The translations under genes and the position numbers were made by a program. Shown one piece after another: positions 11,356 through 56,952 of a DNA stretch of 56,952 nt. The notes under the pieces are model-generated. The model worked only from the letters and a program-made list of their open reading frames with translations, was not told the origin of the DNA and searched no databases. Position 1 is the stretch's first letter. Each line of letters opens with the position of its first letter. This DNA is from Candidatus Hadarchaeota archaeon (GTDB taxonomy: Archaea; Hadarchaeota; Hadarchaeia; Hadarchaeales; JAGGTB01), in the NCBI GenBank assembly GCA_964608515.1, contig CAZSNS010000003.1, forward strand, positions 11,360 to 68,311. The letters run 5' to 3'.

Positions 11356-11602
11356 CCTCTCACCTTTCTTAATAACTAGAGATTTATAACTGAATTCTTT
11401 TTCAAAATGCATTTTTATATATTTTGATAACGTAATCCTCAAGCTTATAAGATTCTGAATGCAAAATGATTGTTAAAAGGACAACCCCGCTTATAATGAA
11501 AATCATAAAAGGGAAACGCAAAGGTTTTAAAAACTCTTCCCTTTTTCATAATAATAATTGAATCACATCACATACCCGAAAGAACGTAAAGAGGTTAATG
11601 AA

Positions 11603-12559
11603 ATGGCTGAAACCCAAGAAAAGAGTCGAAGTGAGGAAGGAAAAAAAGTTGAAACCGAAAGAGAATGTACAGAATGCAACAACGAATCAGTAGTGAGAGA
11701 TTATCAAAGAAATATTCTAATTTGTGAAAAATGTGGTTGCGTCCTCAAAGAAGGTATCAAAGACAGAGGACCGGAATGGCGAGCCTTCGACCAAAAACAA
11801 AGAGAGGAACGTAGTAGAGGAGGAGCGCCAATGACGTACACCATCCACGACAAAGGACTATCCACAAAAATAGACTGGCGAAATAGAGATGGTCGAGGAA
11901 AAAATCTCTCCCCCAAGAAAAGATCCCAGATGCAAAGACTAAGAAAATGGCATAAAAGAGCGAGAGTATCAGGTTCCTCAGACCGCAATCTAACTCTTGC
12001 TCTCGGAGAAATGGACCGTATGTCTTCACAACTTGGCTTGCCGAAAAAAGTTAGAGAGATCACATCAAAAATTTACCGGAAAGCAGTTGAGGAAAACCTC
12101 ATCCGGGGCCGTTCGATTGAAGGGGTAGTCTCTGCTACTCTATATGCGGCTTGTCGAAAGACGCAGATTCCTAGAACATTGGAGGAAATAGCTGAAGTGA
12201 GTCATGTAGATAAGAAAGAGATAGGACGGAGCTATCGGTTTATTACTAGGGAGTTGGATATACATCTCCCACCTACGGACCCAGCAAATTATGTGGCTCG
12301 ATTCGGCAGTGAATTGGAAATTTCCGGTGAAGTGAGAATAAAGGCTATAGATATTATTAAAGAAGCTCAGGAGGAAAAACTAACTTCTGGAAAAGGACCA
12401 TCCGGAACTGCTGCGGCTTCGATTTATCTGGCAAGTATTATGTGTGGAGAAAGGAGAACTCAGAGAGAGGTAGCTGAAACTGCTGGAGTTACTGAAGTTA
12501 CGGTAAGGAACAGGTATAAGGAATTGGCAGAAGAATTGGATCTTGATGTTGATACTTAG
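11603..12559 (+). CDS. tfb: Transcription initiation factor IIB
   Basis: Zn ribbon [26 protein letters not shown], the B-reader RGPEWRAF and two cyclin folds. I prefer ATG 11603. Confidence 0.95.
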
Positions 12560-12660
12560 TGGTTTCCTTTTTCAAAATTTTTCTTTCCTCTAATTTCTTT
12601 ATTTTTGAATAGTTTTTTCTAGTTGAGGATATCAAGATTTCAAATGGAAAAGGGTTTGAA

Positions 12661-13599
12661 ATGAGTTCAGTTGGTTTGTCGGAAGAATCTAAAGAAAGTT
12701 TGATAGAAGGTGGTTATCGACTGGTTGGTGAGAATGAGCACTCAGCGGTAAAAGTGTGTAGATGGACTAAGAAGAGTTTGTTGGATGAAAATATTTGTTA
12801 TAAGCAAAAATTTTACGAGAATATTCATGGTATTAAAAGTCATCGTTGTTTGCAGATGACTCCTAGCTTACCGTTTTGTGATAATAAGTGTGTTTTTTGC
12901 TGGAGAAATTCGGAAATAAATAAACCTGAATGGGAAGGAGAGATTGATGAACCTTCGGAGATTTTAGATGAAGCTATTGAAGCTCAAAGGAAGTTGTTAA
13001 GTGGGTTTAAAGGAAATCCGGAAGCAAGTAAAGAAAAGTGGAGGGAAGCTCAAAAACCAAACTTGGCAGCGATTTCTTTGGATGGAGAACCTACGATTTA
13101 TTCTGATTTAGATGGATTGATTGGTGAATGTTATCGTCGAGATATTGTACCTTTTTTGGTAACTAATGGTTTACATCCGGAAAAATTGCGAGAGATTAGA
13201 GATCCTGCTCAACTATATGTCTCAACTGTGGCGCCAGATGTAGAAACATACAAAAAAGCTTGTCGACCCTTAATTCCCGACCCTTGGAAAAAATTAAACA
13301 AAACCCTTTCAATCCTGTCTGGACTAGACTGCAAAAAAGTTCTACGGTTAACTCTCGTAAAAAATCTAAATATGAAAAATCCAGAAGGATACTCAAAATT
13401 GATAAAAAAAGCAAATCCAGACTTCGTAGAGCCAAAAGGTTACGTTGCTGTAGGACATTCACGGTCAAGACTAGGAATGGAATACATGCCGACCCACTCA
13501 GAGATAAAAGAATTCTCTAAAAAATTAGAAAAACTCACCAACTATAAAATGACAGACGAATTCGAACCAAGTCGAGTGGTCCTACTAGAAAAAAATTAG
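12661..13599 (+). CDS. taw1: tRNA 4-demethylwyosine synthase (radical SAM, TYW1/Taw1)
   Basis: HSAVKVCRWTKKSL, CYKQKFYENIHGIKSHRCLQMTP and FCDNKCVFCWR. Confidence 0.9.
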   Translation: MSSVGLSEESKESLIEGGYRLVGENEHSAVKVCRWTKKSLLDENICYKQKFYENIHGIKSHRCLQMTPSLPFCDNKCVFCWRNSEINKPEWEGEIDEPSEILDEAIEAQRKLLSGFKGNPEASKEKWREAQKPNLAAISLDGEPTIYSDLDGLIGECYRRDIVPFLVTNGLHPEKLREIRDPAQLYVSTVAPDVETYKKACRPLIPDPWKKLNKTLSILSGLDCKKVLRLTLVKNLNMKNPEGYSKLIKKANPDFVEPKGYVAVGHSRSRLGMEYMPTHSEIKEFSKKLEKLTNYKMTDEFEPSRVVLLEKN

Positions 13600-13603
13600 A
13601 GTT

Positions 13604-14614
13604 TTAGAGAGCTTTTTGTCCAAATTCTTCATTTTCCTTGTTAGATGGCACAATATCGGGCTTTTTCTTCTTATTTTCCTCCTCTTTCGGTGTGTCTGTA
13701 TAATTATTCTCTCCAAGAATGGAAACTGTTATTACTCTCACTAATGGTGGTCCTCCGTCAAGTCCGGAGTGGATTTTTAATCCTCCTATCTTAACTTTTT
13801 CTCCGATATAATCATCTAGGTTGTTTTTTTCGCTTTTTAGAGCATATATAAGCTGATTTTCTTTAGTAATAGCATGTGTTCCGTACGTCCAGGTTGTAGC
13901 TTCTAAATCTTTTAACATACCTGATATGATAATTTTTTTCTCCCCTTGTTTTTTCTTATCCGTTCCCTCAATCCTGTTTTCTATATCTTTAATAATCCCG
14001 TCAATAGTGTTATTTTTGTTAGTAGCGTTTTTGATCTCTTTTGTGACTTGTTTTCGCTCCTTTGCAATGTTCTCTTGAATTTCTGTTATCCTAGTTTGTA
14101 ACGATTCTCTAGCCTTCTCAGATATTTTCCCAAAAGAAGGGGCCTCCCGACCTATATTCTCCAGCACTTTTAGACAACGAGAACTTTGTTCTCTTGCTAA
14201 CATTATGGCTGGTCTAGCTACTTTGGGAGCTTCATTTTCAAGATTTTCTAAAACAGTAGAATGTTTTTTAATTGCTTTCATAGCTCTATTTAGGTCTTGA
14301 TTGTCCTCTGAACGTTTTGCAGCTTCTGCGAAATGATTTTCTGCTTCTGAAAGTATTGAAGAGTATTCTTCTGCTTTTCCTTTCTTGACCATATGTTGGA
14401 ACTCTTCCGTTCTCTCTTGACCTCTCTCTATTTCCCAATTTTGTCCGTCAAACACTGGATTTTTTATACTCTCCCCTGCTCTTTCCAAAGCATATATAGA
14501 ACTATCGGGTTGTGTGTCTATTTGATCAACTGCGACAGGAGTACCTATAGTCCCTCCTGCTACAGCTAAAAAAGCAACTCCAATTGCCATTGTGGCTAAT
14601 CCGGCTTTATTCAT
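13604..14614 (-). CDS. Secreted or anchored alpha-helical repeat protein, family unassigned
   Basis: N-terminal hydrophobic anchor, ALERAGESIK...WEIERGQERTEEFQ, and one RAMKAIKKHSTVLENLENEAPKVARPAIMLA unit. Paralog of 14679..15848. Confidence 0.6.
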   Translation of the reverse strand: MNKAGLATMAIGVAFLAVAGGTIGTPVAVDQIDTQPDSSIYALERAGESIKNPVFDGQNWEIERGQERTEEFQHMVKKGKAEEYSSILSEAENHFAEAAKRSEDNQDLNRAMKAIKKHSTVLENLENEAPKVARPAIMLAREQSSRCLKVLENIGREAPSFGKISEKARESLQTRITEIQENIAKERKQVTKEIKNATNKNNTIDGIIKDIENRIEGTDKKKQGEKKIIISGMLKDLEATTWTYGTHAITKENQLIYALKSEKNNLDDYIGEKVKIGGLKIHSGLDGGPPLVRVITVSILGENNYTDTPKEEENKKKKPDIVPSNKENEEFGQKAL

Positions 14615-18881: not shown

Positions 18882-18887
18882 TTGGTA

Positions 18888-38184: not shown

Positions 38185-38196
38185 CCTGAGCTGGGA
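38185..38196 (-). repeat. GC-rich motif half-site B
   Basis: cctgagctggga is the reverse complement of tcccagctcagg. Confidence 0.5.
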
Positions 38197-49000: not shown

Positions 49001-52000
49001 AGACTACAAAAATAATGGTAAGATTCGACACGAAATAGAATTGACCAGCAATTCAGAATGGTCACCTACCATTTTCTCATTTGACTATAATTCGGATACA
49101 GGTTCAAGCTCCCACGCCCATATAAGAAATAGCAAAGTTTCACTTGGAATTTATCCCCCAGAGCCCAGATTTGATGGATCGAATTGGGATTTCTCGGGCA
49201 GCACCACCGATTCATACGGGTACTCTGGGAATCGAGGACATTGGAGTTCAAGCCTGTCGGGAGGAGACCCGTGTCATCCTGTAGATAAAAGTACAAGCGA
49301 TGACGGTTACGCAGAGGATAGTTTCTATGTCGATGTTGATGATGTCGGTGATGAGACTATATCTTTTGACTGGGAAGCAAACATATGGAATAATGATGGG
49401 GATGACAGTGCTTCAGGTAGTCTAACGGTTGAACTTATAGATCCGGGCGGTAGCGTAATAGCTTCTGGTAGTACCGGAACAAAATCCAGCGACGGTACTG
49501 GAACTGTGACATTTAACGTTAGTTCTTCGGATTGGTCAGGTTCTGGAACCTATACAATACGAGCCCACGCGCATATAGACTTATCACTCCACGTTAACAC
49601 CGGTAATAATGACTCAGTAGGAATGGAGTGGTACGTTGACGGTGTTTGGCTAGGATTTGACTCCGGATGGCACGAAACACCATGGACGGACATGGGAGAG
49701 GACACGCCTCTGGGTGGTTTAGAAGCAAAAGCCAACATTGGTAGTGGGGATTCGATAAGTGCAACAATATATACCGACCCTGATTCCGATCACTCTAATG
49801 GAAACGAATCTTCGGTAAACGTAAACCTTTCTAACGGGACAAGTTGGCATGATATCTCGTCCTTAGCCTCCGGTCGGTACGTGAAAGTCAGGACGGATTT
49901 GTCGACCGATCGGAATTGGAGTAACGTTTCAGAGGTGGATTATTATGACATTTATACAGAAAAACCCTCTTATGAACATTGTTACGTGAGGAATAATAGT
50001 GTAGGGATTGGGGTCTACCCGGCAGAACCCGAGTTCGACAGTAATAATTGGACTTTTGGACAGAGTGGAAGTAGTGGGACCGCTAAGTATAGGAATGAAA
50101 AGGCTTACTTTTATTCAGGTGTCGGTTGCGATGCTACTGTAGGGTCGTGTAGTGACTCAAAAAATTGGTATGGTTATTCGGAAGACCAGTTCTATATCGA
50201 TACTCTGGGTATGAAAAACACTCAAACTCTAACTTACGACTGGGATGTGGACTCCAATACTCATGGGGATGGAGACGCTAATATTAATCAATCTAAACTC
50301 TGGATTTATCTTGAAACCCCCAGTGGTACTACGCATCTTCTAGACTCAGTAGATACGAACAATGGCTCCCAGAATGATAGATCTGTGAACATACCTGACT
50401 CGTATTGGGAAGTTTCCGGTCAGTACAAGATTCGAATGAGAGTAAGAATAGACACCGACGTAGATGTAGGCTTGCTTGAAACGAATGCTGCTGCTGAAAG
50501 TAGATGGTATGTGGACGATCTTAGAATCGGTTTCACTTCCGGTCAGCATGATACCGCTTGGAGAGACTTGGGTGAAACCACTGAACTAACTGATCTCAGA
50601 GCGGACGCTACCATTACACCTGGGCAATCAATTGATGCAACGGTGACAGTTGATTCCGATTCCGATCACAGCACTGTAGATGGTTCGACCACTGTAAGTC
50701 TAAGTGATGGGGATCATTTATTCGATATAAGCTCTCTTCCCTCCGCCCGATACGTACAAATCCAGACAAACTTCACAGCCAATTACCAGTACCCGAATAA
50801 GGCAGAGCTCCACTCCTATCAACTTATGGGTAATCCAGCTGGAGATAAGAAAAAATCAGGAAAATACGGCAATGCTATTGAACTTGACGGGGTTAACGAC
50901 TTCGTAAGGATTCCAGACGATGCCAGTCTTGACGTCACTAGCGAAGTCACCGTTTCCACCTGGATGAATATAGACAGTTATCCCAGTTCAGATAGTGCTA
51001 TTCCGTTAACTCACGGAGATTACGACGATTCTTGGTGGCTTGAACTCTACTCCGGCGGAGAATTAAGATTTTATGTAAATACAAATAACGGTCTCCGGAA
51101 AGCAATAATCAACAACGTATCCAGAAACCAGTGGGTTCACATAACCGGAACATATGACAAAGAATCAGGCCAGATAAGCGTTTATAAAAACGGTAAAATC
51201 CAAGATACGGTAGCACATTCCGGTCCTATAAAAACAACCTCAGCCCCTCTATATATGGGTAAAGGATTCGGATCAGGCTATGGTTCCAAATACTACGACG
51301 GTAAACTAGACGAAGTAGAAGTCTACAAAAGAGCACTAGCCGAAAGTGAAATCTCAGAAAAATGGGGCTTCTACACACACTGGCCATTCGAAGGAAAAGG
51401 AACGGGCAGAGCGTTCGACGCCCAAGGCAAATATGACGGAACAACCTCCGGAGGAGTTTCTTGGGTAAATGGCGGAGTTCATGGAAAGGCGTTAAAATTC
51501 GACGGGTCTGACGATTATGTGGCTGTTGATGATTTGGTTTATGACTCAACTGGAGCTATCGGTGAAATAACTGTTGCAGGATGGATTAAAACCAGTTCAA
51601 CCGATGATCAAGTAATAGCTTCATGGGACAGGGATGAATATTGGAGCCTCAACGTTGGAAGAAAGAGCTCAAACAACGAAATTACTTGGAGCACCACTAG
51701 CTCAGATGGAACAACCCATGATATGATCGGAAACACAGACGTGGATGATGATACATGGCACTTCGTGGCTGCCACCTACAGTGCTGTGACAGGCAAGAAA
51801 AAGATTTACGTGGACGGTGAATTAGATGCAGTTACACAACCTTATTCACCCGGAATACAGTTAGGAAAAGGAGAAGAAACGAGATACGGATTCATCGGTG
51901 AAGGATCTGAAGCTTCTAACTTTGACGGCGGTCGAAACAACAGTCTTTACTTTAACGGTTCCATAGACGAGTTAATGTTATTCTCTAAGGCTTTGAATTC

Positions 52001-55000
52001 TTCTGAAATGAAGAAATATATGAATCTCTACGGCGGAACGGACCTCAGCGAATATAAGAACATTAAAGAAGGATGGAGTCGAACTTCTTGGCGCGACTTC
52101 GGGCGAGAGGTGGCATGGAGCGAATTCATATCAGACGTAACAATTGAACCAGGACAAGCCATATACTCCACAGTGGATGTCACCAATCCGATTTATGAAC
52201 CTACTAGCTGGTGGACGATGGACGACGCCCACACCAGAGACAACACTCTCAAAGATTACTGGTCATCCTATGACGGCGAAATAAATGACGCTTCTCCAGG
52301 ACACACAGGAGTGTTTAACCAATCTTATAACTTCGACGGGACGGATGATTGGATTAATTGTGGCGATATAAACGTCCTTGACTCTTCATCAACCTTCACC
52401 ACCAGTTTATGGTTCAAAAGAGAAATAGATCAATCAGATGATTCAAACCATGGCACCAGTAATGTCATGTTTGCAAAGGCTAGCGATAGTGCTAATGATA
52501 TTATCGAAATAGGAACTGAAGGAAGTAATATAGAGATTTATTTAGACGCGATCGGAAATAATAAAATGGAAAGTTACAACGCAGGTATAAATAACAACCA
52601 ATGGTACCATCTTGCACTGACTTACGATAGCGGAGTAGTTAAATTATACTTGAACGGAGCCATGGTGAAGGAATGGACCGGCTGGGGCAGTCAACTAGAT
52701 GATGCTGGAAGTAGTCCTGTGACTCTTGGCAAAACCCACCATTCAGATATATACTTCGGCGGTCTAATCGATGAAGTCATGGTCTACGACAAAGTCCTCA
52801 AACATGGAGAAATACAAAAAATCAGAAACAAGATCAGAAACAAAGAAATTCGAGACAGGCAAGAATTCAGACTAGAGCACGGTCCTCACTCTCACTTCAT
52901 CCAAGAGATGTCGCCTGGTCGATACGCAAGAGTCACCACGAAAATGAGTTCAAATGACACAAGAAAATCACCATCGGTTAACAGTTATACGATATGGGAA
53001 GCTCCAACCTACAAGTCGCAAGGAAGTTATTCTATAACTCGGGATTGGGTGATGAGACGTGAATATACTGATTTTGGTGTTTCAAGTACTCTTCCTGAAA
53101 ATACTAACGCTTCTCTAGAGATACAAGTGAGCAATGACAAATCTAATTGGAATACGATCGGGAGCGACTCCGATTTAAGCGACGGATTTACTAAGATTGA
53201 ACTACCGAGCACTGCGGGTAGGTACTCTAGGGTCAAGTTTGATTTGTCCACTCAAATAGAGACTAGGACACCGGTCATTAATTACTTCACTATACGTTCT
53301 CCTGGCGGTAGCACTGTCAAGTGGCTTGAGGATAATCTGCATTGGGATAGGCTTGAAATGAACTTGGAACATTTTGTCGGTTTCAATGATGTTCTGAATG
53401 AGAACGCTGTCGAAACAATGACACTTGGGAAAGTGGACTTTTTCGACAAACTGCGGGTTGAAAACAATCTCATAGAGTTAGAAAACTTCCACTATTTAAT
53501 AGAGAACTATGATATAGTCTCAAGGGATGTATACCTTACCAATCCTGGAATAACTGATGTGTTAATGGAACAAATAGGAGATATGGGTTGGGATTATAGC
53601 GAACTGACGTGGGAAAACTTCACCTTCTCCCACGATAACATTTATGCTTATATAAAAAGCTTATCTGCAGAAGATTTGCCATTCCTCTCTGCTGGAACAT
53701 TAGGACTGGACAATCTAAAAATGGAAAACACGGTAATAAACTCTACAGACTTCCTATTCAATCTAGAAAACCTCTATTTCCTATCGGACAACGTGTATAT
53801 AGAAAATGTAGGAGTCAACGACTGGGTATACGAATCAATGGAAAACATGGGTTGGGACAACGGACAATGGGACTGGAAATTCTTCAATCTAAGAAACGAC
53901 CACCTATACGCAGATTCTGCCTATATGGACCAAGACGACTTACCCATCGGAGTCCCAGTAGATAATCTCGAATTAGAAAATCTAAAACTAAGCACAAAAG
54001 ACTTCCAATTCCGCTGGTGGAAACTAGCAGTGTGGTCAGATAACATAAACATGCACGAACCAGGCCTGCAAGACGTCCTAAAAAACTTTATAGAAAACAT
54101 GAAATGGCGCTACTCCCGACTCGACTTAGACAATATTTACGCAAAACACGACCGCTTCTACACTTCCTTAGAAAACATGACCCAAGAAGACATTCCGATG
54201 GATGTACCGATGTTTGACAATATAAAAATGGAAAACCTAGAAGCAACCTCCAAAAACTTCCTATATAACTTATTAGATCTGCGAGTCATAGCAGAAAACG
54301 TCAGACTCAGAACACCAGGCCTCACAGACGTTCCGATGGCTTTCATAGAAGAACTAGGCTGGGACAACAGCAGGCTAGAATGGGAAAACCTAGAAATAAC
54401 TAATGACTACCTCTGGACTCATGCAGAAAACCTAACCAAAGACGAAATACCTGCCGAAATACCGTTAGAAAACTTCCGAATCGAAAACCTAGAAATAACA
54501 TCAGAAGATTTCCTAGCCAACCTAATAGATCTACTATGGAAATCGAAAGGTGTTAACTCCGTGGAAAACCTTATCGCAGAATGGAAAATGGACGAAGGCG
54601 AAGGAAGTATAGCAAATGACACAGCGTATCAAAATGACGGACAACTCAAAAACGGTCCGGTATGGGATAACGGGTACTATGGAAACTCACTAAAATTCGA
54701 CGGCTCTAACGATTATGTCGAAACACCAGATGTAGTAGGTGGAGAAAACGAGATAACAATCAGCACATGGGTCAATCCCAAAGACTTTGAATCTCAAGAT
54801 AAGACAGTCGTGGGAACTTGGGGCACCCAAGAATTAACGTTATGGTATGATGTAGGAATGGACAATTGGAGCCTAATTGTTCACGACACCAATGGAAATA
54901 ATGTAAGAGTCAACGGAGGAAACCCACAAACTGGCGAATGGACACACTTGGCTGGAACATACAAGGACAACGAAAAACTAGAACTTTACATAAACGGAAC

Positions 55001-56952
55001 AAAAGTTGCCACCACAAATGCTCAAGGAAACCCAATAAACGATGGTGCTTCTTGGTTTGGAATAGGTTACGACTCCGCACACAATCACTGGAACGGAAAA
55101 ATAGACGAAGTCAAAATATTCGAAAGAGCTCTAAACGAAAATGAAATAGAAAACCTATACGTGGGAGACCCACCAAAAGGATTAGGACTCTTAAACTCAA
55201 TCATCGCCGACCCCTATATAAGCTGGGACAATCTAGACCTCGGAATCTCGCTAAAAACCCACGCAGATAAAATCTATGGACACTCCGACAACCTTACAAA
55301 AGACAACCTCTCGAGCCTACCCATAAGCATACCAACGGAAAAATTCCAGATTGAAAACTTCACACTCAACCTAGAAAACCTAAACGTAGGAATAATAGAC
55401 CTACTACTATCCTCCGATAATGTCACCTTACACACCATAAAACAATTCGGACCAGTCCTAGAAAACATTCGAAACTCCCTTAACATATCTTGGGAGAACA
55501 TCTATGCATCTCTAGAAAACACTAAAACCAGTTTGGATAGGTTGTATGCATTTTCTGAGAACTTGGATGGGGAAAACCTTTCTTCCGGCACATTTGGATT
55601 ATTTAGCGTTCCATTAGAAAACTTCTGGATGGAGAACTTCAATCTTAATTCCTGGAATACTTCATTCGGTCTGGAAAACTTCGGTTTAAGATTTGAAAAC
55701 GCTAGATTGGATAATTTAGACAATACGAAGAGTATGTTGGATAATGTTCTCAACTCATTTAAATACGTTAAATGGGATAACCTAAGAGCTGCCACTGAAA
55801 ACACTAATTTGCAAATAGAAAGGATTCATGGGGAAGACGATAATCTTACAAAAGAGAATTTGGAATCCTCATCCCTTGTACCATTCGACATACCAATGGA
55901 AACCTTATGGATTGAAAACTTAAAACTAGATTCAACTGACACCCGCATATCTATAATCGATTTCCGCATCCGATCAGAAAACTTGAAACTTGAAAATCTA
56001 AATAATACATCAGGCATTCTAGAAAACGTTTTGAATTCCATAGCCTTCATCAAAACAGACAATCTAAAACTCCAAAACTCTTCCAATGTTCAAGCCGACC
56101 ATTTCCACACATATTCGGAAAATCTACAGCAAGAAAATCTCGGAATAGAAATAATGGATAACTTATGGGTGGAAAATCTTGAGATAGAAACAGACTTCTT
56201 TAATGCAGGTTTACTCAATCTCGATCTTTTCTTTGAAAACATGCGGATCGAGAACGCTTCCGATACACAAGGAATGATTGAAAACATTTTCCAAAACATG
56301 ACCGCAGAATGGGAAAATATTTGGATGAATATAGAATCCGGAAGTTCTATCTTCGATAGACTCCGAGGATATTCAGAAAATCTCACACGAGATAATTTAC
56401 CCTTCGAGATAACTCCAGACGTATTTTGGATCAGTGATATCCAGATAAGAGCAGATAATGCGGATGGAAGATTAGAAAACTTCAAATTATCTTCCCGAAA
56501 TGTCCGAATAGAAAATGTGTCAGACCTTAATAGCACTATTGGAGAAGTCCAAGAATCTCTCAGATTAAGCTGGGACAATATCAATGCTAATTTAGAAAAT
56601 AGTGACCTCGAATGGAATAGACTCCACATGTTCGCTGATAATGTTACTGAGAATGATTTGCCTGTTGATCTTGGTTTGGATAATTTCATAGCTGAAAATA
56701 TTGAGGTTGATGTCGAGGACTTTAGTTCTTGGTTGGATAACTTTGGATTGAGGTTTGGAGAGTTTAGAATTGAGAATCTTGATAATACTTCTGGTATTTT
56801 GGATAATGTGAAGGATTCTTTTGAAGTTTTACGTTGGGATAATGTTGACGCTAATATCAGGGCGGGTGGTCTTGATTTTGACAGTCTTTATGCTGCTGCT
56901 GATAATGTTACTGAGAATGATTTGCCTGTTGATCTTGGTTTGGATAATTTCA
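40002..56952 (+). CDS. Giant surface protein (at least 5,650 aa, 3'-truncated by the window): N-terminal signal anchor, at least 8 LamG domains, recurring beta-sandwich-like modules, Asn/Leu-rich ~88-aa repeats
   Basis: In the frame with codon starts divisible by 3, the last upstream stop is TAG 39954-39956 and the first start is ATG 40002. I hand-translated 40002-43500 and 53280-56951 with no stop, and read the rest by eye. The track lists no + ORF in this frame, which it would if any stop existed. N-terminus: MPNSDGETPVNQSVRQNAYPSQENVFFSVIIIILFSISGSIGFLFF. Confidence 0.85.
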   Translation, partial: MPNSDGETPVNQSVRQNAYPSQENVFFSVIIIILFSISGSIGFLFFSHAGLGGLDRGNPTQSDYLEDETNEIGAGVENVGDPTLLDMFGVFVDHMTGGSLGAGSEFGKDLDIQVEEHLIAGNPGPPVLQIGRMNQDSSSPLSGGLRAELDGEIEDYYLGKTSTDPDPGPGTTLMANGSTMGLCDLTGLWEGSYMGISGSGPSPVGDGTSYDTLTLGPLGHINFHSGQLGVNVEDPMKLQWFTHITLDSLVIEGLGYPLGQIDSRLIDSSWPADNDSGGMLGTMILERAEINYLNIHLQEDFGMSMMGQKFNFDELEMESNNLLVKHMGPEPGVNWGDPPEVSHPAAFGPMKIEIVDVGQLDLKHLRNFNVDISEVGVGLDDLSLNMDTLNIRNIWSESMEFEKFDMNKLNIGLQGLNIDSGANVPIPLMGTQNKQQVDLKNLDMGLNNLQLRNMSGLTAMESGHFDSFVIENVKDLRTKLPTEFTETWNEEQDWFKGTSQKTRGPNGSLRLDTNTVWEGALWFDSDGSSLTTTPPNNEQTVQFYSGDGWPHNYGWLDEVYVSGGSDILVEEDDKWIAQLKGPGGFFDKGVTSMRGEYAHKWTYPHEVEIDPSAGEDLVVEYKASASLHGKTNSSNTYNFTLDSSDVPSGARIIEPTSWDIHTELYGNNYSDITITVLGIDYDTGTGGGSCDLYWKYGDKDTAPSRIENVKFASGYYDSGTHTSEWRDMGGNVVWENIQVNAGIPADTNATAVIISSEDGANWTDSKAIDLQDGSHTYDLSDLEPAKYLRIVTNLSTSDPLKTPKVHEYNVNASTKRWGGQLALYLDNLSVNLTNLDLEEMKGMSWDKLNWDDLNAGIDDIDLLSAYNQKNVSGSFSSWKDLDQEDWINYLESNSTLSSGDRAAAVIKVDNNTDHTTITDTTVRALDGGKERFDIQAKPVLNFDGSGDYGAIQDLHYDTAGGISEITVGAWVKTTSSDYQIISSYDANEYWRFAIGSSWDGAGSKGYPAWITASNGAGNHSMVGNTKVNDGEWHHLVATYDSSTGEMGLYVDGKLDATAEPYPDGTNLGTGTTRYGFIGTGSEASGYNGTVGPSEWMNGSLDDLYIYNNALTENEIQSIYNKDKYIQNNLVGYWPLDESQGDRAYDLSGNNNRGVLQGDPEWGIRDKPSLKDHQYYKVDTKEDWWDVDRYLLFSGKGSLRINNLDIKLPNVRVNDPGKVLTSWKSLTSDNAVIEVQDIQADTRGIEYNMNDLLANWTGFKSSVDRVGLGPVVSWAVGSESEWEKGVMDNVEADSPEGELELGYRDGDSKEGLTSYWRFDKEEGSVKDYSGEGNNGTNYGASRGEVGILGSDAFYFNGSNDDYVQSTDSVPVPSNGAISVWINGEMGSQVSQNIYPAGFYKVCLLGPSSGSSGRSGLIARNSGSNYYWDWGDQNIYNGQWHHYVVTWDSSNIYLYLDGQQIGSPKSHNNNIPFGDYRTINAGTAWSNGGYGPHTGKLDEFQIYDRHLSGQEIKDLYKNQNGSFQSTVHDYDRKVSFNSLKTSSVLNPSLKFDGTSDYVGIPNDASLNPNSITVSAWVSLENVGSGYNGIVDKRYNETYALYQDSGDKEFNWYVTTTDTSSSLRDISLNLDEFHHIAGTYDSSTGEMRVYKDGNLIKSTTISGNLASNTANLYIGLRKSTGDVWDGQIDDVRIYNRALSQTEVEDLHENQHITNGLVGHWPFDEGGGTTAYDEASNSNNNGYIHGPTWNSNSWNPNTAISAQVEVSDDPNLNFDGSNDYVEVPDEDSLDITDRITIAGWLYLRKDPAQWKGIAMKGGFDPYGVLLESDSRGLSGSVNIRGQRQKLDSNYDPSNMVGKWTHFVYTYDAGSGEARIYVDNQQRNSSNSFETGSIDIDQDPLIIGAEDANGNRSFPGKIDDLKIYRRTLNENEVSDLYENKPVPQGLVASWSFQNGVGTRTAKDGSDFSHDGTIHGAKWDMIVKGTKNIPASEIHGGTESHGLGGLPEAQYGRVKFDLSSNSIEKSPSIRKFSTDVSAGIMAQWERLALTGKELHFEFKDDLFVENLGLEELELGPVSLDNLEMESLGYDSNWMYGTLENGGVVSDDMKIKGLFDILGPSARFDNFILHRDNFHAFANTFSARGLKFRGENVLDNFTARNFDFVWENFHYQLEKFKKETFDASDWKVSSTEEWDAGNKADTRAVRDSLRLDTKTKHAEWRSTSDWESGSGNKYYVRYGELGIGFYDDFEDGLSNWSPLGGSSWTTTSEGELKATNGGVIVYDDPNVDSSSLADSTIKTRTEMKGGNTGIATRVEDSSNFYTLYLDNGGNIARLRERSGGSWQWTRSESANYYENTLYPLKFVAKGNSLVSKEESNGVFLNNSDSTHSSGYVGVYTPSSGAYYDDFWLQGGYGSATYRTEWREFDNDAALKTLSADTVISPNQGITATVQVSSDGSTVADSVDRVLRNGKNYYDISGLADDYPYVRVVLDLNTSDTTLSPRVKSIGVTEKSAETWKDRNEWAAGRFGLGSTPFHEPGKELLWSATSDWRKGYTETFEDGDVSDWNFIYNDSDPQTGLTDSHCKGRYGLRVDGDDIAVSPKLDLSGMSDVSITAYMDVWSMDDASEDGHLDFYDGGSWHTINSYHNEDGKFTYDIPDDWLSPNNKIRLRLVGGNGGGDHGVVDEIYINSLHGLTAFGGKLELKQLVPEPKFDGWDWDFWDSESGDLDEGYASYRGSGDSRHAEFHARTSTGTCWWPPTGCDSSGSHQGYAQDSFYVEDASLDKELKFWYDGSGGGDGVPTLRIKINDQQSSGWGSPTYSNAVSGSGSGTVTWDVTSAFSSPGRYYVRIRTDISVAASTGWFGSDSDEFTWQVDDLYISYTEGKHVTAWQDMGATVDWNYLNYQTSIAGGEGINTTIEVDDDSRHLSGVSSTKLGLADGSYEEDLSKLKDGKYIRMISKLSSSNTPNSPTLSRYEITYDTPEVTSLKSQDLIGFWKFESPDDEKVFDETDYKNNGKIRHEIELTSNSEWSPTIFSFDYNSDTGSSSHAHIRNSKVSLGIYPPEPRFDGSNWDFSGSTTDSYGYSGNRGHWSSSLSGGDPCHPVDKSTSDDGYAEDSFYVDVDDVGDETISFDWEANIWNNDGDDSASGSLTVELIDPGGSVIASGSTGTKSSDGTGTVTFNVSSSDWSGSGTYTIRAHAHIDLSLHVNTGNNDSVGMEWYVDGVWLGFDSGWHETPWTDMGEDTPLGGLEAKANIGSGDSISATIYTDPDSDHSNGNESSVNVNLSNGTSWHDISSLASGRYVKVRTDLSTDRNWSNVSEVDYYDIYTEKPSYEHCYVRNNSVGIGVYPAEPEFDSNNWTFGQSGSSGTAKYRNEKAYFYSGVGCDATVGSCSDSKNWYGYSEDQFYIDTLGMKNTQTLTYDWDVDSNTHGDGDANINQSKLWIYLETPSGTTHLLDSVDTNNGSQNDRSVNIPDSYWEVSGQYKIRMRVRIDTDVDVGLLETNAAAESRWYVDDLRIGFTSGQHDTAWRDLGETTELTDLRADATITPGQSIDATVTVDSDSDHSTVDGSTTVSLSDGDHLFDISSLPSARYVQIQTNFTANYQYPNKAELHSYQLMGNPAGDKKKSGKYGNAIELDGVNDFVRIPDDASLDVTSEVTVSTWMNIDSYPSSDSAIPLTHGDYDDSWWLELYSGGELRFYVNTNNGLRKAIINNVSRNQWVHITGTYDKESGQISVYKNGKIQDTVAHSGPIKTTSAPLYMGKGFGSGYGSKYYDGKLDEVEVYKRALAESEISEKWGFYTHWPFEGKGTGRAFDAQGKYDGTTSGGVSWVNGGVHGKALKFDGSDDYVAVDDLVYDSTGAIGEITVAGWIKTSSTDDQVIASWDRDEYWSLNVGRKSSNNEITWSTTSSDGTTHDMIGNTDVDDDTWHFVAATYSAVTGKKKIYVDGELDAVTQPYSPGIQLGKGEETRYGFIGEGSEASNFDGGRNNSLYFNGSIDELMLFSKALNSSEMKKYMNLYGGTDLSEYKNIKEGWSRTSWRDFGREVAWSEFISDVTIEPGQAIYSTVDVTNPIYEPTSWWTMDDAHTRDNTLKDYWSSYDGEINDASPGHTGVFNQSYNFDGTDDWINCGDINVLDSSSTFTTSLWFKREIDQSDDSNHGTSNVMFAKASDSANDIIEIGTEGSNIEIYLDAIGNNKMESYNAGINNNQWYHLALTYDSGVVKLYLNGAMVKEWTGWGSQLDDAGSSPVTLGKTHHSDIYFGGLIDEVMVYDKVLKHGEIQKIRNKIRNKEIRDRQEFRLEHGPHSHFIQEMSPGRYARVTTKMSSNDTRKSPSVNSYTIWEAPTYKSQGSYSITRDWVMRREYTDFGVSSTLPENTNASLEIQVSNDKSNWNTIGSDSDLSDGFTKIELPSTAGRYSRVKFDLSTQIETRTPVINYFTIRSPGGSTVKWLEDNLHWDRLEMNLEHFVGFNDVLNENAVETMTLGKVDFFDKLRVENNLIELENFHYLIENYDIVSRDVYLTNPGITDVLMEQIGDMGWDYSELTWENFTFSHDNIYAYIKSLSAEDLPFLSAGTLGLDNLKMENTVINSTDFLFNLENLYFLSDNVYIENVGVNDWVYESMENMGWDNGQWDWKFFNLRNDHLYADSAYMDQDDLPIGVPVDNLELENLKLSTKDFQFRWWKLAVWSDNINMHEPGLQDVLKNFIENMKWRYSRLDLDNIYAKHDRFYTSLENMTQEDIPMDVPMFDNIKMENLEATSKNFLYNLLDLRVIAENVRLRTPGLTDVPMAFIEELGWDNSRLEWENLEITNDYLWTHAENLTKDEIPAEIPLENFRIENLEITSEDFLANLIDLLWKSKGVNSVENLIAEWKMDEGEGSIANDTAYQNDGQLKNGPVWDNGYYGNSLKFDGSNDYVETPDVVGGENEITISTWVNPKDFESQDKTVVGTWGTQELTLWYDVGMDNWSLIVHDTNGNNVRVNGGNPQTGEWTHLAGTYKDNEKLELYINGTKVATTNAQGNPINDGASWFGIGYDSAHNHWNGKIDEVKIFERALNENEIENLYVGDPPKGLGLLNSIIADPYISWDNLDLGISLKTHADKIYGHSDNLTKDNLSSLPISIPTEKFQIENFTLNLENLNVGIIDLLLSSDNVTLHTIKQFGPVLENIRNSLNISWENIYASLENTKTSLDRLYAFSENLDGENLSSGTFGLFSVPLENFWMENFNLNSWNTSFGLENFGLRFENARLDNLDNTKSMLDNVLNSFKYVKWDNLRAATENTNLQIERIHGEDDNLTKENLESSSLVPFDIPMETLWIENLKLDSTDTRISIIDFRIRSENLKLENLNNTSGILENVLNSIAFIKTDNLKLQNSSNVQADHFHTYSENLQQENLGIEIMDNLWVENLEIETDFFNAGLLNLDLFFENMRIENASDTQGMIENIFQNMTAEWENIWMNIESGSSIFDRLRGYSENLTRDNLPFEITPDVFWISDIQIRADNADGRLENFKLSSRNVRIENVSDLNSTIGEVQESLRLSWDNINANLENSDLEWNRLHMFADNVTENDLPVDLGLDNFIAENIEVDVEDFSSWLDNFGLRFGEFRIENLDNTSGILDNVKDSFEVLRWDNVDANIRAGGLDFDSLYAAADNVTENDLPVDLGLDNF
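40005..40014 (+). repeat. GC-rich motif half-site E2 (codons 2-5 of the giant ORF)
   Basis: cccaactcag, 21 nt downstream of the same decamer-like arm in copy E. Confidence 0.5.
40144..40170 (-). repeat. GC-rich motif copy F (inverted, compact), inside codons ~48-57 of the giant ORF
   Basis: + strand atgctgggctgggcggactggaccgtg; reverse complement cacggtccagtccgcccagcccagcat. Confidence 0.6.
42819..43360 (+). other. LamG/ConA-like (Laminin_G_3 type) domain 1 of the giant ORF
   Basis: LNFDGSGDYGAIQD ... DGEWHHLVATYDSSTGEMGLYVDG ... GSLDDLYIYNNALTENEIQSIY. Confidence 0.8.
44055..44545 (+). other. LamG-like domain 2
   Basis: FYFNGSNDDYVQS ... NGQWHHYVVTWDSSNIYLYLDG ... GKLDEFQIYDRHLSGQEIKDLY. 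Confidence 0.75.
44640..45113 (+). other. LamG-like domain 3
   Basis: LKFDGTSDYVGIPND ... EFHHIAGTYDSSTGEMRVYKDG ... GQIDDVRIYNRALSQTEVEDLH. Confidence 0.8.
45303..45797 (+). other. LamG-like domain 4
   Basis: LNFDGSNDYVEVPDE ... GKWTHFVYTYDAGSGEARIYVDN ... GKIDDLKIYRRTLNENEVSDLY. Confidence 0.8.
48090..50826 (+). repeat. Three tandem ~270-aa coding supermodules (48090-48912, 49149-49958, 50013-50826)
   Basis: Each starts (L/I/V)(V/Y)P(x)EP(K/R/E)FD(G/S)xxW(D/T)F, has ..GY(A/S)(Q/E)D(S/Q)FY(V/I)(E/D).., and ends in a W-module: H(V/E/D)T(A/P)W(Q/T/R)D(M/L)G ... (K/R)Y(I/V)(R/K/Q). Confidence 0.75.
50877..51365 (+). other. LamG-like domain 5
   Basis: IELDGVNDFVRIPDD ... NQWVHITGTYDKESGQISVYKNG ... 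GKLDEVEVYKRALAESEISEKW. Confidence 0.8.
51492..52023 (+). other. LamG-like domain 6
   Basis: LKFDGSDDYVAVDD ... DDTWHFVAATYSAVTGKKKIYVDG ... GSIDELMLFSKALNSSEMKKYM. Confidence 0.8.
52326..52830 (+). other. LamG-like domain 7, apparently nested inside a W-module
   Basis: YNFDGTDDWINCGD ... NNQWYHLALTYDSGVVKLYLNG ... GLIDEVMVYDKVLKHGEIQKIR. Confidence 0.75.
53322..54560 (+). repeat. Asn/Leu-rich ~85-90-aa coding repeat array, part 1 (units U1-U5)
   Basis: Unit anchors (Trp of W-D/E-N or equivalent) at 53322, 53589, 53853, 54105 and 54360, giving periods of 267, 264, 252 and 255 nt. Confidence 0.8.
54690..55160 (+). other. LamG-like domain 8, splitting the ~88-aa repeat array
   Basis: LKFDGSNDYVETPD ... 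TGEWTHLAGTYKDNEKLELYING ... GKIDEVKIFERALNENEIENLY. Confidence 0.8.
55224..56952 (+). repeat. Asn/Leu-rich ~85-94-aa coding repeat array, part 2 (units U6-U12; the last is cut by the window end)
   Basis: Anchors at 55224, 55491, 55773, 56055 (T instead of W), 56310, 56571 and 56835, giving periods of 267, 282, 282, 255, 261 and 264 nt. 55 nt are identical between 56634-56688 and 56898-56952. Confidence 0.85.

What the first reader, a model, noticed from the sequence alone, without database searches (positions are those of the whole stretch)
11558..56952. Sub-genic blocks of opposite strand skew and synonymous-codon choice inside single genes
Hand counts may be off by a few bases. In taw1, 12661-12780 has A37 T34 G39 C10, while 13261-13380 has A46 T32 G15 C27. 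In GH31, 21121-21240 has A25 T44 G32 C19, while 21841-21960 has A51 T27 G19 C23. In the giant ORF, 41221-41400 has A70 T33 G31 C46, while 56701-56880 has A41 T72 G53 C14. The G+T-rich blocks use GAT/AAT/TTT/TTG/GAG. The A+C-rich blocks use GAC/AAC/TTC/CTA/GAA for the same amino acids, even within the same repeat family (U1-U10 versus U11b-U12). By eye, block borders lie near 12080, 13200, 21560, 22420, 40620, 41640 and 56640 and ignore gene and domain borders. One G+T-rich block may run across the convergent sepS / 18888 gene junction (about 18540-19330). The long antisense shadow ORFs sit in the A+C-rich blocks. The two states differ by transitions (T/C and G/A), like leading- versus lagging-strand composition. 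Possible causes are patchy recombination with alleles that evolved in the opposite replication orientation, a localized strand-specific deamination-type process, or a chimeric consensus of related populations in a metagenome assembly.
Basis: seen in the sequence. Interest (0 to 1): 0.6.

Follow-up and report, generated by a model that had tools for sequence, protein, structure and literature searches.

The report
GGCC-anchored strand-skew mosaic in archaeon
Inside single genes of this uncultured archaeon the silent DNA letters flip between G/T-rich and A/C-rich blocks, and about half of the clear A/C-to-G/T flips sit on the four-letter word GGCC, which points to an undescribed one-strand DNA repair or copying process tied to that word.

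Summary
All six hand counts are exact, and all seven by-eye borders are recovered within 3-20 nt. The blocks are not special to this window. In a synonymous-shuffle test of 1,209 genes, half had z>3 on the keto/amino axis (G+T against A+C), and almost none did on the GC or purine axes. The state belongs to the DNA strand. It crosses convergent gene junctions, extends into spacers, and reaches about 215 consecutive G/T-ending codons elsewhere in the genome.

New here: A+C to G+T switches are anchored on GGCC. It is the top word of all 4-mers (z=33), the switch lies within 12 nt of the site, and the effect decays over about 270 nt. GGCC lies within 30 nt of 43% of strong switches of this polarity, against 6% by chance and 2% for the opposite polarity. 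The two closest relatives show the same anchoring. Nine other relatives do not.

This fixed polarity argues against recombination with oppositely replicated alleles and against assembly chimerism. It fits an in-situ, strand-asymmetric repair or synthesis process at GGCC. The enzyme is unknown, and living GGCC sites explain only about 10% of the variance. The closest description in print is GRINS (PMC8256042). This scan noted the same GGCC anchoring earlier in other archaeal genomes.

The parts
11338..12100 (.). A+C-rich (M) block on the + strand. It covers the 5' half of the TFB gene (11558-12559).
   Evidence: HMM segment with mean residual -0.28 and posterior 0.06. Gene identity.
12107..12110 (.).
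   Evidence: Step of +0.53, measured as the right 300 nt minus the left 300 nt. It lies 7 nt from the HMM border at 12100.
12103..13212 (.). G+T-rich (K) block. It runs from the TFB 3' half across the spacer into taw1.
Evidence: Mean residual +0.31, posterior 0.97.
13215..13715 (.). A+C-rich block. It covers the taw1 3' end and crosses into the 3' end of the convergent gene 13604-14614(-).
   Evidence: Mean residual -0.38, posterior 0.05. No GGCC lies at its right border.
18536..19635 (.). Mostly G+T-rich run across the convergent sepS / 18888-20324(-) junction. GGCC at 18422 lies 112 nt upstream of its start.
   Evidence: HMM segments. GGCC at 18422 has a step of +0.30.
19716..21546 (.). G+T-rich block that follows GGCC at 19752. 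It covers the 5' end of the gene 18888-20324(-), the spacer and the first third of GH31.
   Evidence: Mean residuals +0.27 to +0.29. GGCC at 19752 has a step of +0.49.
21549..22407 (.). Strong A+C-rich block inside the GH31 TIM-barrel domain.
   Evidence: Mean residual -0.45, posterior 0.02. GC and AT skew flips are visible. It coincides with a separate exact contig of the source run, 21569-22417.
22381..22384 (.).
   Evidence: Step of +0.75, left -0.63, right +0.11.
33424..39919 (.). Long, mostly G+T-rich domain over four + strand genes. It contains GGCC sites with positive steps at 36217 and 39474.
   Evidence: HMM segments with means +0.22 to +0.31. Steps of +0.47 and +0.21.
40625..41636 (.). 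Strong A+C-rich block near the start of the giant lectin-domain ORF. It holds the 229-aa antisense shadow ORF 40922-41611.
   Evidence: Mean residual -0.53, posterior 0.01. Skew profile. ORF list.
40647..40659 (.). Two GGCC sites (40647, 40656) next to a G+T to A+C border. These are counter-examples to the rule.
   Evidence: Steps of -0.74 and -0.75.
41647..41650 (.).
   Evidence: Step of +0.74. The sequence read is A/C-rich to its left and G/T-rich to its right.
41639..42164 (.). G+T-rich block to the right of GGCC 41647.
   Evidence: Mean residual +0.28, posterior 0.96.
50594..56633 (.). A+C-rich domain of about 6 kb in the giant ORF, interrupted by a G+T-rich patch at 53015-53408. It is too long to be explained by tracts of about 270 nt from its few GGCC sites.
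   Evidence: Segment means -0.29, -0.56 and -0.27. GGCC sites at 51168, 51382, 54063 and 54318 have small or negative steps.
56636..56952 (.). No GGCC lies within 120 nt of the switch.
Evidence: Mean residual +0.59, posterior 0.99. Site check.

Best explanation
The blocks are footprints of a heritable, in-situ, strand-asymmetric substitution process acting on the DNA duplex. They are not imported DNA and not an assembly artefact.

In this archaeon (Hadarchaeota/MSBL1 group) and its two closest relatives, the 4-bp palindrome GGCC acts as an anchor. On each side of a site, the strand that runs 5'->3' away from it is enriched in G and T. On the + strand this reads as A+C-rich on the left and G+T-rich on the right. 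The effect begins within 12 nt of the site and fades over a few hundred nt.

The most likely mechanism (inferred, not shown) is recurrent nicking or breakage at GGCC. Repair tracts then run outward from the site. Either the copying errors or the mismatch correction within those tracts are biased along the keto/amino axis. Selection removes most amino-acid changes, so silent sites can go to near purity while proteins stay intact.

G+T to A+C borders are where tracts from neighbouring sites, extinct sites or the replication-level background meet or fade. This pattern is superimposed on a strong ordinary replication skew that is visible at contig scale.

What is shown: the strand property, the selection filter, the GGCC anchoring and its polarity, and the restriction to a clade. 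What is inferred: breakage at GGCC, repair synthesis or biased correction as the chemistry, and the enzyme.
For: Strand property:
- Block state correlates across convergent gene junctions in + strand coordinates (r=+0.43), across same-strand junctions (+0.32) and divergent junctions (+0.17).
- Spacers follow the flanking state (r=0.50).

Selection filter:
- The third-position step at GGCC inside single genes is +0.30 for + genes and +0.26 for - genes. Positions 1+2 shift by only +0.045.
- Amino-acid use shifts conservatively between states.

GGCC anchoring:
- 6-mers containing GGCC are enriched about 10-fold at 255 strong A+C|G+T borders and not at 244 opposite borders.
- In the aggregate profile of 1,892 sites, 13 other palindromes are flat.
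- The per-site step averages +0.272 (se 0.010), against 0.00-0.035 for control words.
- An unbiased scan of all 4-, 5- and 6-mers ranks GGCC first (z=33), with no extended motif. Its one-transition derivatives GGCT and GGTC are weakly positive.
- The switch lies within +-12 nt and the decay length is about 270 nt.
- Both sides are affected whatever the background skew.
- GGCC lies within 15/30/60 nt of 33/43/53% of such borders, against 3/6/12% by chance and 1/2/5% at opposite borders.
- Composition alone would favour GGCC at the opposite polarity, so the association is not a by-product.

Inheritance:
- GGCC is also the top 4-mer in G006 (z=12.7) and G004 (z=5.8).
- It is not top in G001, G002, G003, G005, G007 and G008. 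G009, G014 and G017 have GGCC steps near zero and were not put through the 4-mer scan.

Beyond replication skew:
- Near-pure tracts start at 17.7% of GGCC site-sides, against 6.5% for controls. Their median length is 290 nt and they reach 1.4 kb.

Polarity:
- The polarity equals that of the A+C to G+T flip between the two orc1/cdc6 genes of relative G003.
Against: - A simple model with living GGCC sites explains only about 10% of the non-sampling variance genome-wide (r=0.29). Within 11558-56952 the correlation is r=0.11.
- About half of the strong switches have no GGCC within 60 nt.
- Some GGCC sites sit in uniform blocks or at the wrong polarity (40647/40656, 22081, 39690/39745).
- The 6-kb A+C-rich domain at 50.6-56.6 kb needs another cause.
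- No GGCC-specific enzyme was found. There is no C5-methylase, HaeIII-type nuclease or Dnd system in G000, G006 or G004. These genomes are 65-90% complete.
- Initiation at GGCC cannot be told from termination at GGCC using composition alone.
- Whether GGCC is broken or modified in vivo is untested.
- A later check of the same reading on another genome in this scan priced the bold mechanism at 24/100.
Confidence: 0.6

Rival explanations
1. Break-anchored keto/amino-biased gene conversion. After a break at GGCC and 5'-3' resection, the 3' tails pair with another genome copy. The archaeal mismatch endonuclease EndoMS/NucS sees G/T, G/G and T/T mismatches but not A/C, A/A or C/C. So only G or T on the tail is corrected to the partner's letter. 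The inward strand drifts to A+C, and therefore the outward strand drifts to G+T. Because this acts like directional selection on standing variants, silent sites can reach purity. This is a sub-mechanism of the best explanation rather than a full rival.
For: - NucS is present in all five genus members searched.
- Its published specificity falls exactly on the keto/amino axis (PMC4838380 abstract).
- The axis of heterogeneity is keto/amino only, not GC or purine.
- At fourfold sites A falls and T rises more than transitions alone would give.
- Purity of up to about 215 codons is easier to reach by biased fixation than by mutation bias.
- GRINS, the closest pattern in print, is tied to gene conversion and is commonest in Streptomyces (PMC8256042). 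That Streptomyces relies on NucS rather than MutS/L is my own knowledge.
Against: - NucS is also present in relatives without the pattern, so it cannot be the clade-specific factor.
- No evidence here for recombination between genome copies, for polymorphism, or for the direction of correction.
- An earlier scan note records a NucS link as unsupported on another genome.
Confidence: 0.18
2. Deamination of single-stranded DNA. One strand near GGCC is repeatedly exposed, for example as a displaced 5'-ended flap or in an R-loop, and its C and A deaminate to U and hypoxanthine. This gives C>T and A>G on that strand.
For: - The enrichment is in G and T on one strand, the direction deamination gives.
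- GC content and purine content stay flat.
- These are slow-growing sediment and brine organisms.
Against: - With the usual 5'-3' resection of a break, the exposed 3' tail is the inward strand. That predicts the opposite polarity to what is seen.
- The shift in G/A (0.38-0.51 in log odds) is larger than the shift in T/C (0.23-0.26). Spontaneous deamination of C is much faster than of A (my own knowledge), although a high background C>T rate could mask this.
- Blocks ignore transcription direction.
Confidence: 0.1
3. Recombination mosaic.
For: - The genus has strong replication skew, and the contigs of G004 are uniformly skewed.
- The source sample holds relatives at 80-90% identity.
- One A+C-rich block (13336-13606) is 92% identical to a relative's contig, while its flanks are 82-85% identical.
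Against: - The fixed polarity at GGCC, and the avoidance of GGCC at the opposite borders, is not expected of crossovers.
- Purity near 100% far exceeds the +-0.3 to 0.4 of uniformly skewed relatives.
- It would need roughly 3,400 or more tracts (segments of at least 20 codons) from donors that are saturated at silent sites yet still able to recombine.
- Block positions are not shared with orthologues in G006 or G004.
Confidence: 0.06
4. Assembly artefact. The contig is a chimeric consensus of co-occurring populations, or carries sequence-specific read errors after GGC motifs.
For: - Depth in the likely source run is only about 7x, and other related contigs overlap the region.
- Contigs of the second assembler break at 21418/21569 and 22394-22417, next to two block borders.
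- The genome is in 104 contigs, and G006 is in 290.
Against: - The effect is six times stronger at third positions than at positions 1+2, with conservative amino-acid shifts. Errors and assemblers do not know codon positions.
- Exact contigs from a second assembler span 0.85-2.9 kb, including weaker switches.
- Short contigs at 95-98% identity occur in a second study.
- The bin holds almost no second haplotype.
- The same GGCC polarity occurs in three separately assembled genomes of one clade and in none of nine others.
Confidence: 0.04
5. Selection on codons or RNA. Blocks differ in translational optimisation or in selection against RNA structure.
For: C-ending and A-ending codons are often translationally preferred (my own knowledge).
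Against: - The state is defined on the DNA strand, not the coding strand. It keeps its sign across convergent genes and has the same sign of step in + and - genes.
- It extends into spacers.
- It is anchored on a DNA word.
Confidence: 0.02

Closest known systems
[quoted passage not shown]
   Same: Both show sub-genic stretches of intense, correlated GC and TA skew (G+T against C+A) that flip abruptly within 1 kb on one strand. In both, the skew is strongest at third codon positions and amino-acid use shifts (Gly, Val, Cys, Trp against Pro, Thr, His, Gln). The mechanism is unknown in both. The authors also mention single-copy skewed regions.
   Different: GRINS are defined as duplicated regions (>500 bp, >80% identity) in polyketide synthase and other repeat-built genes of bacteria, and are linked to gene conversion. 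Here the pattern is genome-wide in ordinary single-copy genes and spacers of an archaeon. It is not tied to repeats, and one border polarity is anchored on GGCC. The paper mentions no GGCC, palindrome, restriction or archaea.
Replication-associated strand asymmetry, with an upward skew jump at origins
   Same: Both use the same axis (G and T enriched on the strand synthesised away from the start point) and the same polarity. The flip between the orc1/cdc6 genes of relative G003 runs from A+C to G+T. Both show a sharp jump followed by a decline.
   Different: The scale here is about 0.3-1 kb rather than hundreds of kb. There are about 1,900 anchor sites rather than one to a few origins. The amplitude reaches about 100% at silent sites. 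The effect appears on both sides of a site whatever the replication-level background.
Strand-coordinated mutagenesis around nicks and breaks: break-repair synthesis mutagenesis in yeast, the patch phase of somatic hypermutation, and flanking mutations induced by repair of U/G and T/G mismatches (PMC3999860)
   Same: In these systems too, a lesion or break at a defined place leads to mutations over hundreds of bases on one strand, with the strand switching across the site.
   Different: Those are somatic or laboratory events with sparse mutations. Here the footprint is an evolutionary equilibrium over a whole genome, tied to a 4-bp word, and no break has been demonstrated. Apart from PMC3999860 (seen only as an abstract), this comparison rests on my own knowledge.
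GGCC restriction-modification and modification systems: HaeIII, MthTI, SuaI, CbeI, M.Ssp6803II (GGm4CC), and phosphorothioation at GGCC in Streptomyces
   Same: They share the recognition word. N4/N6-family methylases that modify GGCC are known (abstracts). G000 and G006 carry extra N4/N6-family DNA methylase genes that G004, G001 and G003 lack.
   Different: No specificity could be assigned to those methylases. G000's copy is split by a stop codon. No cognate nuclease, C5-methylase or Dnd gene was found. No such system is known to leave a strand-skew footprint.

Membership tests
GRINS (PMC8256042) | Intense, positively correlated GC and TA skews (mean absolute values >0.15) over at least 500 bp | tested here: met
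   Blocks such as 21549-22407, 40625-41636 and 53411-55538 have third-position residuals of -0.45 to -0.56 and joint GC/AT skew flips. Heterogeneity lies on the keto/amino axis only.
GRINS (PMC8256042) | The region is duplicated, with >80% DNA identity to another region of the same gene cluster | tested here: not met
   A self-BLAST of the genome finds only two inter-contig duplicates and a few repeat-built genes. Skewed blocks lie in single-copy genes such as TFB, taw1, sepS and GH31.
GRINS (PMC8256042) | Skew strongest at third codon positions, with a shift in amino-acid composition | tested here: met
   The third-position step is 0.26-0.30, against 0.045 at positions 1+2. Cys, Val and Phe are enriched in the G+T state, and His, Asn and Gln in the A+C state.
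Replication origin / terminus skew switch | One or a few switches per chromosome, next to orc1/cdc6 and origin repeats, with uniform skew over tens to hundreds of kb | tested here: not met
   There are about 3,400 segments with a median length of 334 nt. The orc1/cdc6 genes lie on other contigs (C19, C4). Relatives G004, G001 and G003 do show the uniform pattern.
Recombinant mosaic of oppositely replicated alleles | Both border polarities equally likely at any crossover point, and block amplitude no greater than the lineage's replication skew | tested here: not met
   GGCC lies within 30 nt of 43% of A+C|G+T borders and 2% of G+T|A+C borders. 2.5% of 40-codon windows have |skew| of at least 0.8, against none in five ordinary relatives.
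Chimeric metagenome assembly | Borders coincide with switches between co-occurring haplotypes in the reads | tested here: inconclusive
   Only contigs of the runs could be laid, not reads, and the cap was one call. Exact contigs span many weak borders. Contigs break near three strong blocks. Indirect evidence (codon-position dependence, GGCC polarity, three genomes) speaks against it.
Type II GGCC restriction-modification system as the cause | A GGCC-specific methylase and nuclease encoded in the genomes that show the pattern | tested here: inconclusive
   PF00145 and PF09556 are absent in all five genomes searched. Extra PF01555 methylases occur in G000 (split by TAG) and G006 but not in G004. 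Their specificity cannot be tested with these tools, and the genomes are 65-90% complete.
DNA phosphorothioation (Dnd) at GGCC | dndC, dndD and dndE genes | tested here: not met
   The only DndC-model hit (50 bits against a cut-off of 290) is a PUA-PAPS-reductase-ferredoxin protein in a housekeeping context.

The most novel reading that the evidence does not exclude
GGCC sites in this archaeal clade are recurrent self-inflicted break or nick sites. The keto/amino skew is written by mismatch processing that recognises only G/T-type mismatches (EndoMS/NucS) in the repair heteroduplex. This would be a new kind of biased gene conversion, strand-polar and acting on the keto/amino axis. It could recode silent sites to purity, and it could also explain GRINS in actinobacteria, the other large group that relies on NucS.
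Probability: 0.15. Interest if true: 0.95.

Novelty: new variant of a known kind. Interest (0 to 1): 0.8.

Why it matters
Strand compositional skew is normally read as a record of replication direction at the scale of a chromosome. Here the same signal is written at the scale of a few hundred bases, inside genes, and is tied to a 4-bp word. If this holds, four things follow.

1. It reveals a DNA transaction at GGCC in uncultured archaea that is frequent enough to dominate neutral evolution. The candidates are breakage, nicking, or modification-triggered repair.
2. It gives the first positional handle on the unexplained GRINS-type intense skews. This makes their mechanism testable through motif-anchored polarised SNP spectra and through methylome and break mapping.
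3. It warns that local skew reversals in metagenome-assembled genomes should not be read as inversions, recombination tracts or chimeras without checking for motif anchoring.
4. It shows a mutational or conversion force strong enough to shift amino-acid composition and to create long spurious antisense ORFs. That matters for gene calling and codon-usage inference in such genomes.

Tried and rejected
The contigs of the close relatives found (P0002-P0004) could therefore not be fetched for allele-by-block comparison.
- Read laying is capped at one call and gave contigs only. Read phasing at borders was not possible. Small shares in runs X2-X5 were not used for habitat claims.
- Second haplotype inside the bin: only C7/C74 (86.7% identity, 3.3 kb) and C23/C36 (75%) turned up. 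The C7/C74 pair shows no directional substitution pattern.
- Conservation of blocks in orthologues: the profiles of G006 and G004 orthologues correlate weakly or not at all with G000. G006's GH31 is pure G/T where G000 is A+C-rich. Silent sites are saturated, so changes could not be polarised.
- No motif was found at G+T to A+C borders beyond a weak TATATA excess. There is no extended motif around active GGCC sites.
- A replication-fork-direction (lagging-strand priming) model was rejected, because both sides of GGCC respond in either background.
- Enzyme hunt: C5-methylase and HaeIII nuclease are absent. SRA-HNH occurs only in G000. The DndC-like hit is a housekeeping PUA-PAPS-reductase protein. 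NucS is in all five genomes. A Y-family polymerase is found only in G003. None of these matches the pattern's distribution.
- Comparing the G006 and G000 methylases failed on frame and stop codons.
- Literature searches for GGCC-linked skew found nothing.
- Whether shadow ORFs prefer A+C-rich blocks was tested genome-wide and rejected.
Full report
**1. The observation**

The window is G000:C3:11360-68311 of a 1.98-Mb, 104-contig genome. Homologues are named candidate division MSBL1 and Hadesarchaea. Earlier notes of this scan call the organism Hadarchaeota.

- TFB at 11558-12559
- Taw1 at 12661-13599
- SepRS at 17301-18881
- a GH31 glycosidase at 20578-23025
- a giant lectin-domain ORF from 40002

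I defined a residual for each codon. It is the keto (G/T) or amino (A/C) state of the third base minus the genome-wide expectation for that amino acid, with its sign set to + strand coordinates. A two-state HMM on this residual places borders at 12100, 13212, 21547, 22408, 40623, 41637 and 56634.

**2. More than chance, and genome-wide**

I shuffled synonymous codons among the positions of each amino acid within each gene. This keeps the protein and the gene's codon usage. I compared the CUSUM range of the residual with the shuffles for 1,209 ORFs of at least 200 codons.

| Axis | Mean z | Share of genes with z>3 |
|---|---|---|
| Keto/amino | 3.77 | 50% |
| GC3 | 0.12 | 2% |
| Purine/pyrimidine | 0.46 | 4% |

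- Sixty-codon windows have a standard deviation of 0.326, against 0.127 expected from sampling.
- The per-site autocorrelation is about 0.1 and decays over 100-150 codons.
- An HMM with states at +-0.3 and a dwell time of about 100 codons improves the log-likelihood by about 15,000.
- Segment lengths have a median of 334 nt and a 90th percentile of 1.15 kb.

The finding is therefore real, specific to one compositional axis, and a property of the whole genome rather than of this window.

**3. A property of the DNA strand, filtered by selection**

In + strand coordinates the state of gene ends correlates positively across convergent junctions (r=0.43), same-strand junctions (0.32) and divergent junctions (0.17). 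Selection on the coding strand would give a negative sign for opposite-strand pairs. Spacers follow the flanking state (r=0.50, slope 0.38).

The blocks are not just moderate skews. 2.5% of 40-codon windows have |skew| of at least 0.8, whereas five ordinary relatives have none beyond 0.6. One gene (C6:39033-40103) has about 215 consecutive codons ending in G or T. Others begin with 47-97 codons ending almost only in A or C.

Synonymous first positions follow the state: TTG in G+T blocks, CTA and CTC in A+C blocks. Amino acids shift conservatively, and the proteins remain intact. Where the protein is poorly constrained, all three codon positions go to one state. This is the signature of a very strong directional pressure on the DNA that selection holds back at constrained sites.

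**4. Relatives**

Among genomes of the same genus, family and order:
- G006, the closest relative (SepRS 78% identical), shows intragenic heterogeneity (mean z 2.67).
- G004 (SepRS 73% identical) has strongly but uniformly skewed contigs, the classic replication skew.
- G001, G002, G003 and three genomes of other families are ordinary.

G006's GH31 orthologue has codons 160-440 with virtually no A or C at third positions, followed by codons 480-600 that are about 95% A/C. These blocks lie at different places from those in G000. Blocks are therefore lineage-specific in position, but the phenomenon is inherited.

G000's contigs also carry a majority state. Adjacent 5-10-kb bins correlate at 0.54, and the strong blocks mostly share the contig's majority sign. 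So a replication-level skew underlies the mosaic.

**5. The key result: GGCC**

I collected 255 strong A+C|G+T borders and 244 strong G+T|A+C borders and looked for enriched 6-mers within +-40 nt. Every top word at the first class contains GGCC (for example CCGGCC, 29 observed against 2.7 expected). The second class has none.

- Around all 1,892 GGCC sites the mean residual is about -0.1 just to the left and +0.18 just to the right. Thirteen other 4-bp palindromes are flat.
- The per-site step (right 300 nt minus left 300 nt) averages +0.272 with a standard error of 0.010. The median is 0.26 and the 25th percentile is 0.02. Control words give 0.00-0.035.
- An unbiased scan of all 4-, 5- and 6-mers ranks GGCC first (z=33). 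All flanks behave alike. The one-transition derivatives GGCT and GGTC are weakly positive, as expected of decayed sites.
- The switch lies within +-12 nt of the site. The antisymmetric amplitude is about 0.2 and the decay length is about 270 nt.
- The step has the same sign inside + genes (0.30) and - genes (0.26), with a shift of 0.045 at positions 1+2.
- Both sides respond whether the surrounding kilobases are G+T-rich or A+C-rich. This rules out a lagging-strand-only process.
- GGCC lies within 15/30/60 nt of 33/43/53% of the A+C|G+T borders. Chance gives 3/6/12%, and the opposite borders show 1/2/5%.
- Near-pure tracts start at 17.7% of GGCC site-sides, against 6.5% for control positions. 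Their median length is 290 nt and they reach 1.4 kb.

Composition alone would favour GGCC (keto-keto-amino-amino) at G+T|A+C borders and disfavour it at A+C|G+T borders. The association therefore runs against the trivial expectation, which argues that the site is a cause.

Window examples:

| GGCC position | Step |
|---|---|
| 12107 | +0.53 |
| 22381 | +0.75 |
| 41647 | +0.74 |
| 19752 | +0.49 |
| 36217 | +0.47 |
| 31690 | +0.46 |
| 48241 | +0.42 |

**6. Replication in other genomes**

GGCC is again the top 4-mer in 297 kb of G006 (step +0.18, z=12.7) and in 159 kb of G004 (+0.07, z=5.8). It is not top, and has a step near zero, in G001, G002 and G005 (same genus) and in G007 and G008 (same family). 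G003 (same genus) and G009, G014 and G017 (other families) also have GGCC steps near zero but were not put through the 4-mer scan.

The trait therefore marks the small clade of G000 and its two nearest relatives. Its intensity (G000 > G006 > G004) parallels the intragenic heterogeneity.

After I had found this, I saw that two earlier notes of this scan (e1-3749667, e1-4794011) report the same GGCC anchoring in other archaeal genomes. A later check there upheld the observation but priced the bold mechanism at 24/100.

**7. What this excludes**

*Recombination with oppositely replicated alleles.* Crossover points would not have a fixed polarity at a palindrome. The purity of blocks also far exceeds the replication skew of uniformly skewed relatives.

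*Assembly chimerism.* The likely source run has only about 7x depth and holds related organisms. A second assembler's contigs break near three strong blocks. Against this:
- Those contigs match the window exactly over 0.85-2.9 kb.
- Short contigs at 95-98% identity occur in a second study.
- The bin has almost no second haplotype.
- Neither assemblers nor read errors know codon positions or a GGCC polarity.

Read phasing itself could not be done, because only contigs could be laid and the cap was one call.

*Codon or RNA selection* fails the strand test described in section 3.

**8. Mechanism (inference)**

The polarity is that of a replication origin. The strand running 5'->3' away from GGCC is G+T-rich. 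This matches the A+C to G+T flip between the two orc1/cdc6 genes of G003.

Three readings fit this polarity:
- (a) Repair DNA synthesis is primed at a nick or break at GGCC. It runs outward over the resected stretch, and G.T-type misincorporations escape correction.
- (b) Mismatch correction acts on the 3' tails of a resected break through an enzyme that sees only G/T, G/G and T/T mismatches. This is the published specificity of EndoMS/NucS (PMC4838380), and NucS is present here. The result would be keto/amino-biased gene conversion, which explains purity more easily than mutation bias does.
- (c) A displaced outward strand is deaminated.

Deamination of the 3' tails left by ordinary 5'-3' resection predicts the opposite polarity. 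On the outward strand the log-odds shift of G/A (0.38-0.51) exceeds that of T/C (0.23-0.26). At fourfold sites A falls by 0.08 and T rises by 0.06, while G rises by 0.035 and C falls by 0.025. This does not look like pure cytosine deamination, but it is not decisive.

Initiation at GGCC cannot be told from termination at GGCC by composition.

No GGCC enzyme was identified:
- There is no C5-methylase, HaeIII-type nuclease or Dnd system.
- G000 and G006 have extra N4/N6-family methylases of unknown specificity. G000's copy is split by a TAG and sits beside McrC and an SRA-HNH nuclease.

**9. Limits**

- Living GGCC sites with one exponential tract explain only about 10% of the non-sampling variance (r=0.29). 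Within 11558-56952 the correlation is r=0.11.
- Half of the strong switches have no GGCC within 60 nt, including 13715 and 56634 in the window.
- Several sites are silent or of the wrong sign (40647/40656, 22081, 39690/39745).
- The 6-kb A+C-rich domain at 50.6-56.6 kb needs another cause. Candidates are extinct sites, long tracts, replication-level skew, or a GRINS-like process in this repeat-built gene.

**10. Comparison with what is known**

The closest description in print is GRINS (PMC8256042). GRINS are intense, correlated GC and TA skews that flip within 1 kb. They are strongest at third positions, come with amino-acid shifts, and have no known mechanism.

GRINS are defined as duplicated regions in repeat-built bacterial genes. 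That feature is not met here. The paper mentions no GGCC, palindromes, restriction or archaea. My literature searches for GGCC-linked skew found nothing.

I therefore rate this as a new variant of a known kind. It is a genome-wide, single-copy, archaeal form of intense keto/amino skew, with the first positional anchor for one border polarity.

Noticed in passing
G000 contig C10:3714-7124 (locus L084): A defence-type island. It holds the 3' end of a McrC-like gene, an N4/N6-family DNA methylase split by a TAG stop (two ORFs), and a 306-aa SRA-HNH endonuclease of the modification-dependent type. The SRA domain was found in none of G006, G004, G001 or G003.
   Followed up: partly
G000 contig C6:42880-43400: Two identical copies of a unit of about 300 nt whose + strand is 80-88% G+T at all positions. 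They lie inside the long gene 40638-46676(-). This is a repeat-built, extremely skewed stretch that may meet the GRINS definition.
   Followed up: no
G000 contigs C7:1-3303 / C74:1283-4581 and C23:1-4414 / C36:15845-20240: Contig-end duplicates at 86.7% and 75% identity. They may be fragments of a second related population binned with this genome. No directional substitution pattern separates the C7/C74 copies.
   Followed up: partly
window 11001-30000, as laid on runs X1-X4: The likely source run (sediment metagenome, depth about 7x) also holds about 70 contigs under 90% identity from related organisms. Hypersaline-lake runs of another study hold an abundant relative at 82-92% identity and, in X4, short contigs at 95-98% identity.
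   Followed up: partly
G003 contig C5:40500-46500 (loci L139-L140): A patch of about 6 kb with third-position keto residuals of +0.5 to +0.8, in a relative that shows no GGCC effect. Intense skew patches therefore also arise without GGCC anchoring in this genus.
   Followed up: no
G003 contig C5, about 11-12 kb: An A+C to G+T flip of the replication-level skew lies between the two orc1/cdc6 paralogues (3.2-4.3 kb and 29.7-30.9 kb). This is a candidate replication origin.
   Followed up: partly
G000 C58:8092-9984 (locus L096): A 630-aa PUA-PAPS-reductase-ferredoxin protein (family PRK13795). The DndC model found it in G000, G004 and G006 but not in G001 or G003, which is the same distribution as the GGCC effect. 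Its neighbours are housekeeping genes (thermosome, Lhr helicase, hydrogenase), so this is probably a coincidence.
   Followed up: partly
window 18888-20324 (-): A 478-aa protein whose only family match is a short MazE/AbrB-type (SpoVT) DNA-binding domain near the N-terminus. The rest of the protein is unassigned.
   Followed up: no
G000 contigs C10:14662-14796 and C7:3380-3470: Runs of N (1,153 in the whole genome). These are masked or scaffold gaps, which mimic extreme composition in naive scans.
   Followed up: yes
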